Assembly (NCBI GenBank): GCA_951406725.2
Contig: OX597836.1
Coordinates: forward strand, 25,172,001 to 25,236,000
Length of the DNA: 64,000 nt
Source of the DNA: Octopus vulgaris
Taxonomy: Eukaryota
Direction: 5' to 3'
Position 1 is the stretch's first letter, and each line of letters opens with the position of its first letter. The translations under genes and the position numbers were made by a program. Positions 2,075 to 64,000 of the stretch are shown one piece after another. The notes beneath the pieces were generated by a model, which was given only the letters and a program-made list of their open reading frames with translations, did no database searches and was not told the origin of the DNA.

Positions 2075-2630
2075 GGTATGAGGTTGGTAGAATTGTTAGG
2101 ATGCCAGACAAAATGCTAAGCAGCATGCTTTCTGCTTTTATGTTCCAAGTTCAAATTCCACTGAAGTCCACTTTGCCGTTCATCCTTCTGGGGGTCAATA
2201 AAATAAGTACCAGTTGAATACTGAAAGTCAATGTGAATGACTTTTCCCCATCTCAAAATTGCTGGCCTTGTGCCTATAGAAGAAAGGATTATTACTGACA
2301 TTGGCCAAAGTGATGGAATGTTTGACTTATCGGACCAATTTTGTATTTGTTCTGCCTGTTTGCATTTTGAGTTCAATTCCTATTGATGTCACCTTTGCCT
2401 TTCCTCATTTCACGATTGATAAAATAAGCACCAGTTAATTACAGAAATCGATATAATTGACTGGCCCCCTCCCCTCAAATTTCTGGACGTGTGCCTATCT
2501 TATAAACAATTGTTATTAGTATTATTATGCAGTGGGAGCAAGGGATCTTGTGTTGTTTACTGCTGACCTTTTCAATTCTGGCATTTAAACTGGTCTAAAT
2601 ATGCTACCTGTTCTGTTCTGTGTTCAAATT

Positions 2631-2675
2631 GACCTCTGATGAGAATTCAATAAGATTTGAAAATTGATTAAGGTC
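2631..2675 (+). ncRNA. Minimal type I hammerhead ribozyme motif, canonical core
   Basis: GACCT-CTGATGA-GAATT(caataa)GATTT-GAAA-ATTGAT-TA^AGGTC. Helix I GACCT/AGGTC is perfect, the core CUGAUGA...GAAA...UH is intact, and helix III is near-palindromic. Confidence 0.65.
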
Positions 2676-5595: not shown

Positions 5596-6005
5596 AGGCG
5601 TAGGAGTGGCTGTGTGGTAAGTAGCTTGCTAACCAACCACATGGTTCCGGGTTCAGTCCCACTGCGTGGCATCTTGGGCAAGTGTCTTCTGCTATAGCCC
5701 CGGGCCGACCAATGCCTTGTGAGTGGATTTGGTAGACGGAAACTGAAAGAAGCCTGTCGTATATATGTATATTTATATGTATGTATGTGTGTGTGTTTGT
5801 GTGTCTGTTTGTCCCCCTAGCATTGCTTGACAACCGATGCTTGTGTGTTTACGTCCCCGTTACTTAGCGGTTCGGCAAAAAGAGACCGATAGAATAAGTA
5901 CTGGGCTTACAAAGAATAAGTCTCGGGGTTGATTTGCTCGACTAAAGGCGGTGCTCCAGCATGGCCGCAGTCAAATGACTGAAACAAGTAAGAGTAAAAG
6001 AGAGT
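5596..6005 (+). mobile_element. tRNA-derived SINE family B (CORE-like CTTGGGCAAGT); near-identical - strand copy at ~62306-62716; others at ~10730-11030, 19615-20012, 27300-27690, 46455-46752
   Basis: Head GGCGTAGGAGTGGCTGTGTGGTAAG...GGGTTCAGTCCC, internal (TA)/(TG) microsatellite, tail GCTCCAGCATGGCCGCAGTCAAATGACTGAAACAAGTAA. Confidence 0.85.
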
Positions 6006-8921: not shown

Positions 8922-9026
8922 AATTAAAGTCAATGACCAGATCATCGAAGTTGACGGCAAAAGTCTGGTGGGCGTCACCCAAGCGTATGCAGCATCAGTG
9001 CTGAGAAACACGAGTGGAACTGTGAG
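8922..9026 (+). CDS. PPP1R9A/B-like: Neurabin/spinophilin-like exon: C-terminal part of PDZ domain ((R)[34 protein letters not shown](R))
   Basis: Polypyrimidine tract + cag acceptor, AG|gtaagt donor, phase 2-2. The peptide matches the neurabin/spinophilin PDZ as I recall it (RIQVNDQIVEVDG.SLVGVTQ.FAA.VLRNT.G.VRF.IGRE). Confidence 0.95.
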
Positions 9027-14841: not shown

Positions 14842-15851
14842 GTTGTATTGTATCAATTTCTTTACTTTTGTGTTTGTTTGTTATATTATTCTCACACACA
14901 CACGCACACTATATCTACCTACCTACCTACCTATCTATCTATCTTATCTATCTATCTATCTAACTATCTTGTTTGTCTGTCTGTCTGTCATTCTTTCTTA
15001 TCTTTCTTTCTTTGTTTCTTTATATTGGAATAATTCCTGACATTTAAGTTATTGTGTACAATTTTAAACATCAAAACTAAACAAAATTGTGTCCATATAG
15101 CATATCTGTACCTTCCACTTTCCAGCTGTGCCTTGTAAAAACGTAAGATTTATATTAAAATAGGGTTTATTTGCATTCATTGATATTCAGTAAGCATGCA
15201 TTACATCCACGCAAGAAACTCTGTCAATATGTATATATATATATATATATATATAGATATATATATGGAGGCGCAATGACCCAGTGGTTAGGGCAGCGGA
15301 CTTGCGGTCGGAGGATCTCGGTTTCGATTCCCAGACCGGGCGTTGTGTGTGTTTATTGAGCGAAAACACCTAAAAGCTCCACGAGGCTCCGGCAGGGGAT
15401 GGTGGTGATCCCTGCTGTACTCTTTCACCACTCTAAAGGCGGTGCTCCAGCATGGCTGCAGTCAAATGACTGAAACAAGTACAAAAAAAAAAAAAAAAAT
15501 AGATAGATAGATATTAGTGTGTATGTTAGTCCAGTGTAATTTAAACGTTAAACTGTGTGACAAACAGCCAGTGTTTATAAACTCTGTGTGTATTTCCGTT
15601 GTATTGTAACTTCATCCTTTCTTAGAAAATCCTGGTTTGAGTCTTAGGAGTAGATGTAAAGAAAAAAAACATGAGATTTTTTCCCTAAAAAAAAAAGAAA
15701 AAAACTTTAATTCAACCTGATGGACCATAGGGAAAATTTAACCCTAACCCAGCAATAATCTGAATATCTCATAAACAATCTTTCTTGTTTTGGTTTGTTT
15801 TATTTCACGTTGCCCTGTTAATTAGTGTTAAATTTAAATAAGTCTCTTTTA

Positions 15852-16371
15852 TACGAAAGTGAGTCAAAAAGTAATGCCATTTTGCTTAGGACAGTTATAA
15901 TTACCAACACAGGAACATGTATCATACATCAAAATGAAGCTGGTCCTCTGTGGATCATATCCCTACTTCTCAACATAGTCACCGTTTCTCTCAATAGCAA
16001 TGTTCCACCTTCAAATGAGAGCATGTATCCCTGTCCCTTAAAATTCTGTTGACTGTTCTTTGAGCCACTTCTTCATTACAGGTTTCACTTCCTCGTCACT
16101 GGGGCCAAAGAGATGATAGTCCAGTGATGAGGAAGTGAAAATTGTAGTGAAGAAGTGGCTCAAAGAACAGTCAACAGAATTTTAAGGGACAGGGATACAT
16201 GCTCTCATCTGAAGGTAGAACATTTCTATTGAGAGAAACTGTGACTATGTTGAGAAGTAGGGATGTGATCCACAGAGGACCAGCTTCATTTTGATGTATG
16301 ATACATGTTCCTGTGCTGGTAATTATACCTGTCCTAAGCAAAATGGCATTACTTTTTGACTCACCCTCATA
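15852..16371. mobile_element. Mariner-derived fold-back element: two inverted copies of the mariner 3' end
   Basis: ~250-bp arms with TA at both ends, termini TACGAAAGTGAGTCAAAAAGT / ACTTTTTGACTCACCCTCATA. The right arm translates as decayed transposase C-terminus SDEEVKIVVKKWLKEQSTEF*GTGIHALI...ERNCDYVEK*. Confidence 0.88.
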
Positions 16372-16414
16372 TTTATTATTTGTGCTTATTTTCTTTTGTT
16401 GTTGTTGTTGTCAG

Positions 16415-37446: not shown

Positions 37447-37568
37447 GATTTAATGGAGAATTCTCAAGGACAGTACATTGCCTTGGAGAAGAAAATGCAA
37501 GGAGATTATTCCATTTTGGAGAAAAAATACCATAAAGCCAAAAAGTTGATCAAAGAATTTCAACAGAG
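37447..37568 (+). CDS. PPP1R9A/B-like: Neurabin/spinophilin-like coiled-coil exon (DLMENSQGQYIALEKKMQGDYSILEKKYHKAKKLIKEFQQ(R))
   Basis: ttttag acceptor, AG|gtaagt donor, phase 0-2. LEKKY.KAKKLIK.FQQ is a family hallmark. Confidence 0.94.
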
Positions 37569-38779: not shown

Positions 38780-38876
38780 AGAGAAGGACTTTATCCAGGA
38801 ACGAGAATCGTTATTGCAGCAACAGGCAGAACGTGATCAACAATATAATGCTTTAGTGAAATCTTTGAAGGACAGA
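38780..38876 (+). CDS. PPP1R9A/B-like: Neurabin/spinophilin-like coiled-coil exon (EKDFIQERESLLQQQAERDQQYNALVKSLKDR)
   Basis: ttttccag acceptor, AGA|gtaagt donor, 97 nt, phase 2-0, in frame with neighbours. Confidence 0.92.
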
Positions 38877-38995
38877 GTAAGTTTCTGATGTTACAAACTT
38901 TCTTCAATGGTTATTTCACTTCAGAAAGTTTAAAGTTGTTAGCTCTTTTTTTCATAAATCTTGAGCTTTTTTTTTTAAAACTCATCTCAGTTTAT

Positions 38996-39202
38996 CACAA
39001 AAGCCGTTCGATTCACTTCAACATTTAAGTTTAATTTGTCAAAATATTTTCATCGCTTTAAGACTGCAACCTGTTCACTGACAAAAATCCGTGTAGATGC
39101 ATCGCACGGATTTTTGTCAGTGAACAGGTCACGGTCTTAAAGCGACGAAAATATTTTGACAAATTAAACTTAAATGTTGAAGTGAATCGAACGGCTTTTG
39201 TG
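38996..39202. repeat. Fold-back inverted repeat (~100-bp arms), probable Penelope-like pLTR remnant
   Basis: CACAAAAGCCGTTCGATTCAC... is the reverse complement of ...GTGAATCGAACGGCTTTTGTG, with a short loop near 39095-39103. Each arm has a hammerhead motif. Confidence 0.85.
39113..39163 (+). ncRNA. Hammerhead-like motif with swapped G3-C8 core pair (second copy on - strand at 39035-39085)
   Basis: TTTGTCA-GTGAACA-g-GTCAC(ggtcttaaa)GCGAC-GAAA-ATAT-TT^TGACAAA. Perfect 7-bp helix I, palindromic helix III AATATT. Confidence 0.55.
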
Positions 39203-39437
39203 TGTTTCTTAAATGGCTTACAAACACCTTCCACGCTGCAATTGTTTTCGTTTCAGCACACGATCTCAGATCAAATCACTTGCTATGCAAGTACATCTCA
39301 GTTAATCTCCTTCAGTAAAATCTTAATGATATTTTTGAACCCTCTTTCGTAGTGTTGCCATCTTCCTTTAGTAAAAACTATTGACCTTCTCCTGTACAGG
39401 CTGTTTTTTAATTTTATCATTTTTCTTTCTTCATCAG

Positions 39438-39588
39438 ATATTCCAACTGGAACATGATTTAGCAGAAACACAAAAAGCCGCAGGATTACCTGTGGCTATA
39501 CCTAAAGAATCTGGTTCTCCCAGTAACCAACGGGTTGAGAAAACCGTTGTTACCATGGGGAACCCAACAAGTTTACCAAAGTCACCCG
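39438..39588 (+). CDS. PPP1R9A/B-like: Neurabin/spinophilin-like exon: end of coiled coil (IFQLEHDLAETQKAAGLPVAIPKES...LPKSP)
   Basis: Polypyrimidine tract + catcag acceptor, G|gtaagt donor, 151 nt, phase 0-1. Confidence 0.9.
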
Positions 39589-48893: not shown

Positions 48894-49524
48894 TAGAAAT
48901 AATATATTTCTAAACCTCTCAAATAGATTTATGCAGTAGCAGCACGATAAAGTGATAGCATGTTGTCAACTTAATGTGACAGTCCCATGAAAGGGAAGAA
49001 TATTACTGTTATTTAGCCTTAGGAAACACCATTTCCTGTTGGACTTGATACATTTCCCGCATCTTTATATTTTCAAAGGGGAGACAAGCACCTTCACCCA
49101 GCAAAGCCACCTTCCAGAGACTAGTTTCAGCATCATTGCTCATCATCAGTTCTGGAGTAGCATGTCTTGCTAGCAGTCGATGCCTATCCGCCTTTGGAAA
49201 CATATTTCAAGTGAAATACATTCACTGATTTTTGAAAATAGAAATAATATATTTCTAAATCTCTCAGAGAGATTTATGCAGTATCAGCAATGCTACTCCA
49301 GCTAGCAGGCCATGCTACTCCTGCCTGATGAGGAGCAACGACTCTGAAACTAGTTTATGGTTGCTGGCTTTGCTGGGTGGAGATGCTTATCTCCACTTTG
49401 CAAACATAAAGACACAGGAAATGAGTCAAGTCCAACAGGAAACGGTGTTTCCTAGGGCTAAATAACAGTAGCATTCTTCCCTTTTATGCGACTGTCACAT
49501 TAAGTTGACAACATACTGTCACTT
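48894..49524. repeat. Inverted repeat (~225-bp arms, 48950-49174 / 49301-49524), each arm preceded by a ~51-bp direct repeat; Penelope-like
   Basis: The arms are diverged reverse complements. The direct repeat TAGAAATAATATATTTCTAAA...GATTTATGCAGTA.CAGCA occurs at 48894 and 49239. Each arm has a hammerhead core. Confidence 0.8.
49114..49155 (-). ncRNA. Minimal hammerhead motif, C3-G8 core (decayed + strand copy at 49320-49360)
   Basis: Reverse strand reads CCAGA-a-CTGATGA-tgAGCA(atga)TGCT-GAAAC-TA-GTC^TCTGG, with palindromic helix III ACTAGT. Confidence 0.6.
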
Positions 49525-63577: not shown

Positions 63578-64000
63578 GTAAAAAGTGAAAAACTACAGAA
63601 GGCTTAAAGGTTAAAATATATATATTTGCGTCAATATGTCTGAAGAATATTAAAAAATTTTTTCTTACAATGACATAATTTAGAAGAAAGACCGGTTTCG
63701 CGTTTAGCTTTTCAAATTTCTTGCGACGTTATGTTTATCTTGAACAGAGTTATCAGATAACAGATAACTCTGTTCAAGATAACAGAGTTATCAGATAACA
63801 GAGTTATCAGATAACAGATAACTCTGTTCAAGATAAACATAACGTCGCAAGAAATTTGAAAAGCTAAACGCGAAACCGGTCTTTCTTCTAAATTATGTCA
63901 TTGTAATAAAAAAATTTTTAATATTCTTCAGACATATTGACGCAAATATATATATTTTTTAACCTTTAAGCCTTCTGTAGTTTTTTCACTTTTTACTATT
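63574..64000. repeat. Near-perfect palindrome next to (TA)n, running to the window end; Penelope-like
   Basis: AATAGTAAAAAGTGAAAAACTAC... pairs with ...GTAGTTTTTTCACTTTTTACTATT. The centre is built of reiterated CAGAGTTATC/AGATAAC pieces. Confidence 0.88.
63849..63887 (+). ncRNA. Hammerhead-like motif with U3-A8 core pair (identical - strand copy at 63684-63722)
   Basis: AAGAAA-t-TTGAAAA-GC(taaac)GC-GAAAC-CG-GTC^TTTCTT. GAAACCGGTC is typical of Penelope-associated minimal hammerheads. Confidence 0.55.

What the first reader, a model, noticed from the sequence alone, without database searches (positions are those of the whole stretch)
38996..39202. 207-bp hairpin with G3-C8 swapped hammerheads in a short intron between two coiled-coil exons
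Each arm has a perfect 7-bp helix I (TTTGTCA/TGACAAA) in exact register around GUGAACA...GAAAAUAUUU. The two arms differ mainly in helix II (GTCAC/GCGAC versus GTTGC/GCGAT), pointing to an ancestral GTCGC/GCGAC. An extra G follows A9 and the cleavage triplet is UUU, both atypical. The hairpin fills about a third of a 561-nt intron.
Basis: partly seen in the sequence, partly recalled or inferred. Interest (0 to 1): 0.7.

Follow-up and report, generated by a model that had tools for sequence, protein, structure and literature searches.

The report
Swapped-core hammerhead in Penelope-end hairpin
The hairpin is a short folded-back end-piece of a common jumping gene sitting in an intron of a neurabin-like gene; it carries a hammerhead-type motif whose paired core letters are swapped (G-C instead of C-G) in thousands of copies, a natural variant that likely can still cut RNA in the parent element but is predicted to be locked inactive at this spot.

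Summary
The hairpin is real (98-nt arms, 4 mismatches, z -28.6), but it is only part of a 304-nt insertion (38996-39299) flanked by a 7-nt target duplication. The insertion is the terminal repeat (pLTR) of a Penelope-like retroelement with a Neptune/Nematis-type linker, joined to an inverted truncated copy. That structure is typical: 12 of 26 sampled sites are such hairpins.

The motif is a true homologue of PLE minimal type I hammerheads. It sits in the pLTR about 60 nt before the ORF start, with an extra nucleotide after A9 and a palindromic helix III. G3-C8 is fixed in this family (8,871 exact hits) and dominant in an older relative. The sister families keep C3-G8 at the same position. I found no natural G3-C8 hammerhead in the papers I could read; a key survey (Lünse 2017) was unavailable.

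In the host pre-mRNA it is buried in the hairpin (about 70 kcal/mol to release). The extra nucleotide and U17 are normal for PLE hammerheads. Cleavage is untested, and inserted copies do not begin at the predicted cut.

The parts
38780..38876 (+). Host exon (coiled-coil-like, 97 nt) of a neurabin/spinophilin-like gene
   Evidence: AG/GT ends and a frame continuous with the next exon; a PDZ exon upstream on the same strand (8922-9026) matches neurabin/spinophilin, E 6.5e-15; that both belong to one gene is inferred
38877..39437 (+). 561-nt GT-AG host intron containing the insertion
   Evidence: splicing not shown by reads
38989..38995 (+). Left target-site duplication AGTTTAT
   Evidence: Matches the right copy at 6 of 7; one low-depth contig (4.1) of another organism (run X16) reads T38993A, which makes the two copies identical
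38996..39093 (-). Inverted, truncated copy of the PLE pseudo-LTR (left arm)
   Evidence: 96% to the right arm; such inverted arms at 12 of 26 sampled sites
39035..39085 (-). Hammerhead motif of the inverted arm (antisense to the host pre-mRNA); helix II decayed by CpG-type transitions
   Evidence: G3 at 39078; folds into helices I and II when alone
39104..39299 (+). 3' end of the PLE pseudo-LTR (direct copy), including the 97 nt beyond the hairpin
   Evidence: 93-96% to the pLTR downstream of RT/GIY-YIG frames in 29 of 30 loci and to a 5' pLTR that runs into the ORF
39113..39163 (+). Minimal type I hammerhead motif: helix I 39113-19/39157-63; G3 39120, C8 39125, extra G 39127; helix II 39128-32/39142-46; GAAA 39147-50; palindrome AAUAUU 39150-55; U17 39156; predicted cut 39156/39157
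   Evidence: Sequence, descriptor scan, cross-family pairing; cleavage not tested
39213..39299 (+). First 29 codons of the PLE ORF (start ATG at 39213), including the optional tail of about 55-60 nt (about 39245-39299)
   Evidence: In-frame continuation into the RT ORF in L100, L102, L109, L111; two clustered 3' ends
39300..39306 (+). Right target-site duplication AGTTAAT
39438..39588 (+). Downstream host exon (151 nt)

Best explanation
The hairpin is a 304-nt insertion of a Penelope-like retroelement end (pLTR plus an inverted truncated copy) carrying a minimal type I hammerhead homologue with a lineage-wide G3-C8 swap, which likely still works as a slow, dimer- or protein-dependent ribozyme in the parent element but is predicted to be inert here. 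SHOWN: family membership, link to an RT + CX3CxxC + GIY-YIG ORF, position of the motif in the pLTR before the ORF start, target duplication, two preferred 3' ends, G3-C8 in families A and A', C3-G8 in sister families B and C. INFERRED from PLE literature: the element's protein nicked AT-rich DNA and started reverse transcription inside the ORF start of an uncleaved transcript; early termination plus an inverted second copy gave the palindrome. INFERRED: in tandem pLTR transcripts two motifs pair through the palindromic AAUAUU to build helix III and cut after UUU; G3-C8 keeps the Watson-Crick geometry of the 3-8 pair, and U17 instead of C17 would avoid a G3-C17 mispair. PREDICTED: in the host pre-mRNA the single sense motif is bound in a 98-bp duplex and has no partner, so the intron copy is a passive fossil and at most a double-stranded RNA substrate.
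For: PLE link: the arm lies about 1 kb downstream of GIY-YIG frames, same strand, in 29 of 30 loci. L094 has a 1025-aa open frame with RT motifs and Pfam GIY-YIG above cut-off. The 5' pLTR runs in frame into the ORF. Inverted 5'-truncated copies and tails are typical PLE features (PMC8557442 passages; PMC11167929 parts 1-2). Hammerhead homology: the closest relative found, family C (RT/EN 55% identical), has a C3-G8 motif in its pLTR before the ORF start. Family B is C3-G8 in 93 of the first 100 listed of 658 hits, none G3-C8 (counted by eye). With positions 3, 7 and 8 left free, older family A' is G3-C8 in 39 of 57 and C3-G8 in none, while N7 differs (C versus A) (by eye). Exact-pattern counts: G3-C8 8,871, C3-G8 303, G3-G8 299, C3-C8 45. 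In 27 hand-picked motifs the 3-8 pair is paired in all 27 (GC 16, CG 8, UG 2, GU 1). A tree of pLTR sequence downstream of the core splits B+C from A+A' at 100/99. Helix III changes sequence between families but stays self-complementary or nearly so. The C3G/G8C double mutant partly restores cleavage in a PLE hammerhead (PMC11167929). A G3-C8 variant did better with G17 than with C17 (PMC3884650 passage, data not shown there). Sequestration: helix I/II pair probabilities 0.0 in the intron, 69.9 kcal/mol to force them.
Against: No cleavage data. 0 of 24 usable copies (30 examined, 6 dropped because the alignment ran into microsatellite) begin at the predicted cut. 299 copies carry the mismatched G3-G8, including an ORF-linked older copy (L219), and the very young, intact family C has C instead of the conserved A9; a working hammerhead may therefore not be needed in this lineage. 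The swap is probably one event, so the covariation counts are not independent. No Rfam hammerhead model matched the locus at E<=10, nor appeared among the 150 of 186 matches shown for four relatives. The window's own arms fold no better than shuffles (z -0.35 and -1.06; the ORF-linked copy L100 z -2.68). Clade assignment rests on the linker motif, not on a tree with reference PLEs.
Confidence: 0.72

Rival explanations
1. Same origin, but the G3-C8 motif is a dead or non-catalytic relic. The swap drifted in while cleavage was dispensable, and the fold is kept, if at all, as a protein-binding or splicing-related structure of the pLTR.
For: Hammerhead mutants did not affect insertion in vitro and no RNA ends were seen at the site for PAc (PMC11167929). 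Copies do not start at the cut. G3-G8 copies and the A9C family exist.
Against: Both partners changed to a new Watson-Crick pair, and G3 and C8 were kept between A' and A while N7 and loop II changed. G3-G8 copies are scattered on the tree (12 changes for 12 rows) and do not form a founding lineage.
Confidence: 0.2
2. The hairpin has been co-opted by the host gene, as an intronic self-cleaving element or as a double-stranded structure that steers A-to-I editing or splicing of the neighbouring exons.
For: It is a near-perfect 98-bp duplex in a short intron. The left part of the insertion is also present in one contig of another organism. Heavy A-to-I editing in cephalopods is recalled, not tested.
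Against: Both arms show CpG-type decay of helix II; the motif cannot fold in the pre-mRNA; such hairpins are common by-products (12 of 26 sites); the duplex is closed on itself and does not pair with the exons.
Confidence: 0.05
3. The hairpin is a MITE or a microRNA-like precursor, and the hammerhead resemblance is chance.
For: Palindromic shape; sub-threshold Rfam microRNA hits.
Against: The arms are unequal pieces of a retroelement end; all Rfam hits are far below gathering score; related families carry canonical hammerhead cores at the same place.
Confidence: 0.03

Closest known systems
Minimal type I hammerheads in pLTRs of metazoan Penelope-like elements (Cervera & de la Peña 2014, PMC4209133; read: main text parts 1-2 of 4, supplement file 2 parts 1-2 of 3; file 1 not available)
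   Same: Location in the pLTR; extra nucleotide between A9 and G10.1; G10.1-C11.1; palindromic rudimentary helix III; U17 common (UUU in the oyster row); second copy on the opposite strand nearby; a 3' splice-site-like signal just upstream as in D. virilis Penelope.
   Different: Core is GUGANCA. The 56 rows of Fig. S3 have CUGA..GA or UUGA..AA cores, none G3-C8. The extra base is G (consensus H; G in 1 of 56 rows). Helix I is 7 bp, longer than the usual 2-5.
PAc Poseidon element of Anolis (Frangieh et al. 2024, PMC11167929; read parts 1-2 of 4)
   Same: Hammerhead next to the ORF start; two preferred 3' ends inside the ORF start defining a tail; AT-rich targets; the engineered C3G/G8C double mutant is the core found naturally here.
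   Different: Here the ATG is 57 nt after the cut site rather than inside helix II, the tail is about 55-60 nt rather than 30-40, and the ORF has the CX3CxxC linker.
Neptune/Nematis-type EN+ PLEs (Craig et al. 2021, PMC8557442; passages only)
   Same: RT, CX2-5CxxC linker, C-terminal GIY-YIG; partial tandems; inverted 5'-truncated copies; (TA)n targets.
   Different: Clade not fixed by a reference tree here; this family was not found described.
Natural U3-A8 core covariation (Perreault et al. 2011, PMC3088659, passages; PMC4209133)
   Same: Compensatory change of the 3-8 pair in nature.
   Different: U3-A8 keeps pyrimidine-3/purine-8; G3-C8 needs two transversions and reverses the pair.

Membership tests
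EN+ Penelope-like element (pLTR fragment) | Linked single ORF with PLE-type RT and C-terminal GIY-YIG endonuclease | tested here: met
   L094 1025-aa frame; Pfam GIY-YIG 25.5 bits, cut-off 22.6; RT motifs read by eye, homologues labelled RT-domain proteins; Pfam RVT_1 itself did not score
EN+ Penelope-like element (pLTR fragment) | pLTR both downstream of the ORF and running into the ORF start | tested here: met
   29 of 30 loci downstream; in-frame 5' junction in L100, L102, L109, L111
EN+ Penelope-like element (pLTR fragment) | Optional tail, 5' truncation, inverted copies, AT-rich targets | tested here: met
   3' ends at +29 to +36 from the ATG in 13 of 30 and at +83 or beyond in 14 of 30 (reference ended at +92); ends at the ..CATCTCCGT motif; 12 of 26 sites inverted
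Neptune clade | CX2-5CxxC linker before GIY-YIG | tested here: met
   CQSNCAVC in P0002; shared with Nematis
Neptune clade | RT phylogeny with reference PLEs | not tested
   No named reference PLE proteins were in hand
Minimal type I hammerhead of PLEs | Core consensus CUGANGA..GAAA..UH | tested here: not met
   C3 and G8 are replaced by G3 and C8; all other core positions are met, so it is filed as a variant
Minimal type I hammerhead of PLEs | Watson-Crick pair between positions 3 and 8 | tested here: met
   G3-C8; paired in 27 of 27 hand-picked motifs from five families
Minimal type I hammerhead of PLEs | Helix I, helix II closed by G10.1-C11.1, extra nucleotide after A9 | tested here: met
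   the left arm has decayed to G10.1-U11.1
Minimal type I hammerhead of PLEs | Palindromic helix III for dimer formation | tested here: met
   AAUAUU; self-duplex -4.6 kcal/mol for the 11-mer. The cofold MFE of two monomers did not give the hammerhead dimer fold
Minimal type I hammerhead of PLEs | Self-cleavage 3' of N17 | not testable with these tools
   Only contigs were available; genomic 5' ends do not mark the site
MITE / DNA transposon | Terminal inverted repeats at both ends of a fixed-length unit | tested here: not met
   Arms are unequal and variable, and many copies have one arm only

The most novel reading that the evidence does not exclude
G3-C8 is a working, selected natural hammerhead core. 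It arose once in this cephalopod PLE lineage, was kept through at least two successive families, and was made possible by U17, which avoids a G3-C17 trap. Together with the canonical (B) and A9C (C) sister families, it forms a natural mutant series that all CUGANGA-based searches miss and that can test directly whether PLE hammerheads are under selection for cleavage.
Probability: 0.45. Interest if true: 0.6.

Novelty: new variant of a known kind. Interest (0 to 1): 0.42.

Why it matters
Hammerheads in PLE ends are well known, but their function is open. A double-transversion swap of the 3-8 pair, kept across families, is among the best sequence-level signs that the catalytic geometry is still selected. 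It would widen the natural core consensus and show that standard descriptors miss thousands of motifs in one genome. The sister family with A9C and intact ORFs points the other way, so the lineage offers a ready comparison. The locus itself is an ordinary decayed insertion.

Tried and rejected
Rfam: no hammerhead model hit at the locus, none among the 150 of 186 matches shown for relatives; microRNA hits are generic hairpin or microsatellite matches.

Direct-repeat pairs L061, L062 and L166 as full elements: tandem duplications of host DNA; no long ORF in L061 or L062, and no match to the family A protein in L166. Family B's link to a PLE ORF therefore rests on its shared pLTR and ORF-start sequence with family C.

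G3-G8 as an ancestral intermediate: rejected, the copies are scattered on the tree and some sit in one arm of a palindrome only. One 6-row clade in that tree is probably an artefact of (TA)n flanks; two picked rows (L042, L057) had no core match and were left out.

Conservation test A versus A' (26 of 30 structured versus 49 of 80 free positions, p 0.012): not used as evidence, because the search pattern had fixed most structured positions.

In alignment A1 the two family D rows are one column off in helix II.

RNA evidence: no RNA holder on record was listed. Contigs of guessed-RNA runs hold family sequence but cannot show ends, strand or editing; most of the flanking exons were not covered; no splice joint was seen in the pLTR.

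Literature for a natural G3-C8 hammerhead: searches and octopus searches found only engineered mutants. Lünse et al. 2017 (about PLE variants) and Przybilski & Hammann 2007 were not held, so prior description there cannot be excluded; bioRxiv supplements were not seen.

Full report
OBSERVATION. The 207-nt hairpin is real: -154.8 kcal/mol, z -28.6, 98-nt arms with four mismatches. It lies in a 561-nt GT-AG intron (38877-39437) between two exons that read in one frame. A PDZ exon upstream on the same strand matches neurabin/spinophilin, so the host is likely that gene. The genome is 2.8 Gb and probably an octopus: the closest named relative of the element's protein is labelled Octopus vulgaris (62%).

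WHAT IT IS. The right arm has at least 924 candidate copies, and the shared sequence continues 97 nt past the hairpin to 39299. The whole insertion, 38996-39299, is flanked by AGTTTAT and AGTTAAT; one low-depth contig of another organism has identical copies and the same left junction. Following longer copies upstream led to a GIY-YIG frame. In 29 of 30 loci found with that protein the arm lies about 1 kb downstream on the same strand. L094 holds a 1025-aa frame with RT motifs, a CX3CxxC linker and GIY-YIG. In L100, L102, L109 and L111 the same arm runs in frame into the ORF start; in the window that ATG is at 39213. So the arm is the 3' end of a PLE pseudo-LTR. Copies end at two places, +29 to +36 from the ATG (13 of 30) or at +83 and beyond (14 of 30; reference ended at +92). 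This is the PLE tail. Of 26 distinct sites in a sample chosen only by a downstream motif, 12 are inverted pairs (11 flagged by the script, plus L270/L271). These features match the descriptions in PMC8557442 (passages) and PMC11167929 (parts 1-2).

IS IT A HAMMERHEAD? PLE pLTRs carry minimal type I hammerheads with an extra nucleotide after A9, G10.1-C11.1 and a palindromic helix III (PMC4209133). All are present here, with AAUAUU as the palindrome and UUU as an allowed NUH triplet; U17 is common in that paper's Fig. S3. Only the 3-8 pair departs. Exact patterns in the genome give G3-C8 8,871, C3-G8 303, G3-G8 299 (by subtraction) and C3-C8 45 (both arms of hairpins count). The C3-G8 class is mostly another family, B; with positions 3, 7, 8 and 9 left free it is C3-G8 in 93 of the first 100 listed of 658 and never G3-C8 (by eye). 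The closest intact relative, family C (1312-aa frames, 55% identical over RT/EN), has the motif in its pLTR before the ORF start with C3-G8 but C in place of A9. An older family A' is G3-C8 in 39 of 57, G3-U8 in 8 and C3-G8 in none, with N7 = C rather than A (by eye). In 27 hand-picked motifs the 3-8 pair is paired in all. A tree from the sequence downstream of the core separates B+C from A+A' (100/99) and scatters the G3-G8 copies. Since all 56 published rows are C3-G8 or U3-A8, G3-C8 is the derived state, probably one event.

HOW IT LIKELY WORKS. In the parent element, tandem pLTRs in one transcript would pair their palindromes to form helix III and cut after U17, slowly and perhaps only with the element's protein, as shown for other PLE motifs. 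The engineered C3G/G8C double mutant partly restores cleavage. U17 would spare G3 from mispairing with C17, by analogy with a remark in PMC3884650; this is my inference. Against a need for cleavage: none of 24 usable copies starts at the predicted cut (14 start 53-71 nt upstream, near a 3' splice-site-like signal; 6 of 30 rows dropped), 299 copies carry G3-G8, and family C spreads with A9C. At this locus the host RNA contains one sense motif, with a mismatch in helix II, whose helices have pair probability 0.0 in the folded intron; forcing them costs 69.9 kcal/mol. The four arm differences are CpG-type transitions from the family form GTCGC/GCGAC. The copy is best read as a passive fossil.

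NOVELTY. The element type, the hairpin and the hammerhead location are known. A natural G3-C8 core was not found in searches, nor in the Cervera alignment or the Perreault passages, which report U3-A8. Lünse 2017 and Przybilski 2007 could not be read. Other papers seen: bioRxiv 10.64898/2026.07.22.740005 part 1 of 5; passages of PMC8495972, PMC6765202, PMC6155905 and PMC10085705. Other agents of this scan reported what appears to be the same family from other windows; that is agreement, not independent support. Verdict: new variant of a known kind, interest 0.42.

Noticed in passing
L186:1126-1185 and 5714-5773; L187: A young PLE family with many intact 1312-aa ORFs carries a hammerhead with C3-G8 but C in place of the conserved A9.
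   Followed up: partly
G000: G3-G8 copies (299) outnumber C3-C8 copies (45) about 6.6-fold although scattered on the tree; unexplained. A small cluster L194-L198 shares one variant.
   Followed up: partly
L256-L285; L063, L094: Most short copies begin 53-71 nt upstream of the predicted cut, at a branch-point/acceptor-like signal (ACTAAC..tttctcAG; 480 exact hits). This suggests a defined RNA 5' end or an RT stop at an intron boundary.
   Followed up: partly
L012:907-1871; L113: Tandem arrays of a roughly 166-190-nt unit made of this pLTR end, retrozyme-like; there the sense motifs could dimerise.
   Followed up: no
L189:3617-3678; L210:1872-1933: Another family (D) with a canonical C3-G8 minimal hammerhead; its ORF was not identified.
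   Followed up: no
window 15851-16372, 48950-49524, 63613-63958: Three more long inverted repeats; no hammerhead motif in them by descriptor scan; probably other palindromic transposon relics.
   Followed up: partly
window 2630-2675 (+): A CUGAUGA..GAAA descriptor hit with weak helices and no G10.1-C11.1 pair; probably chance.
   Followed up: no
window 8922-9026, 16415-, 37447-37568 (+): Further candidate exons of the neurabin/spinophilin-like host gene.
   Followed up: partly
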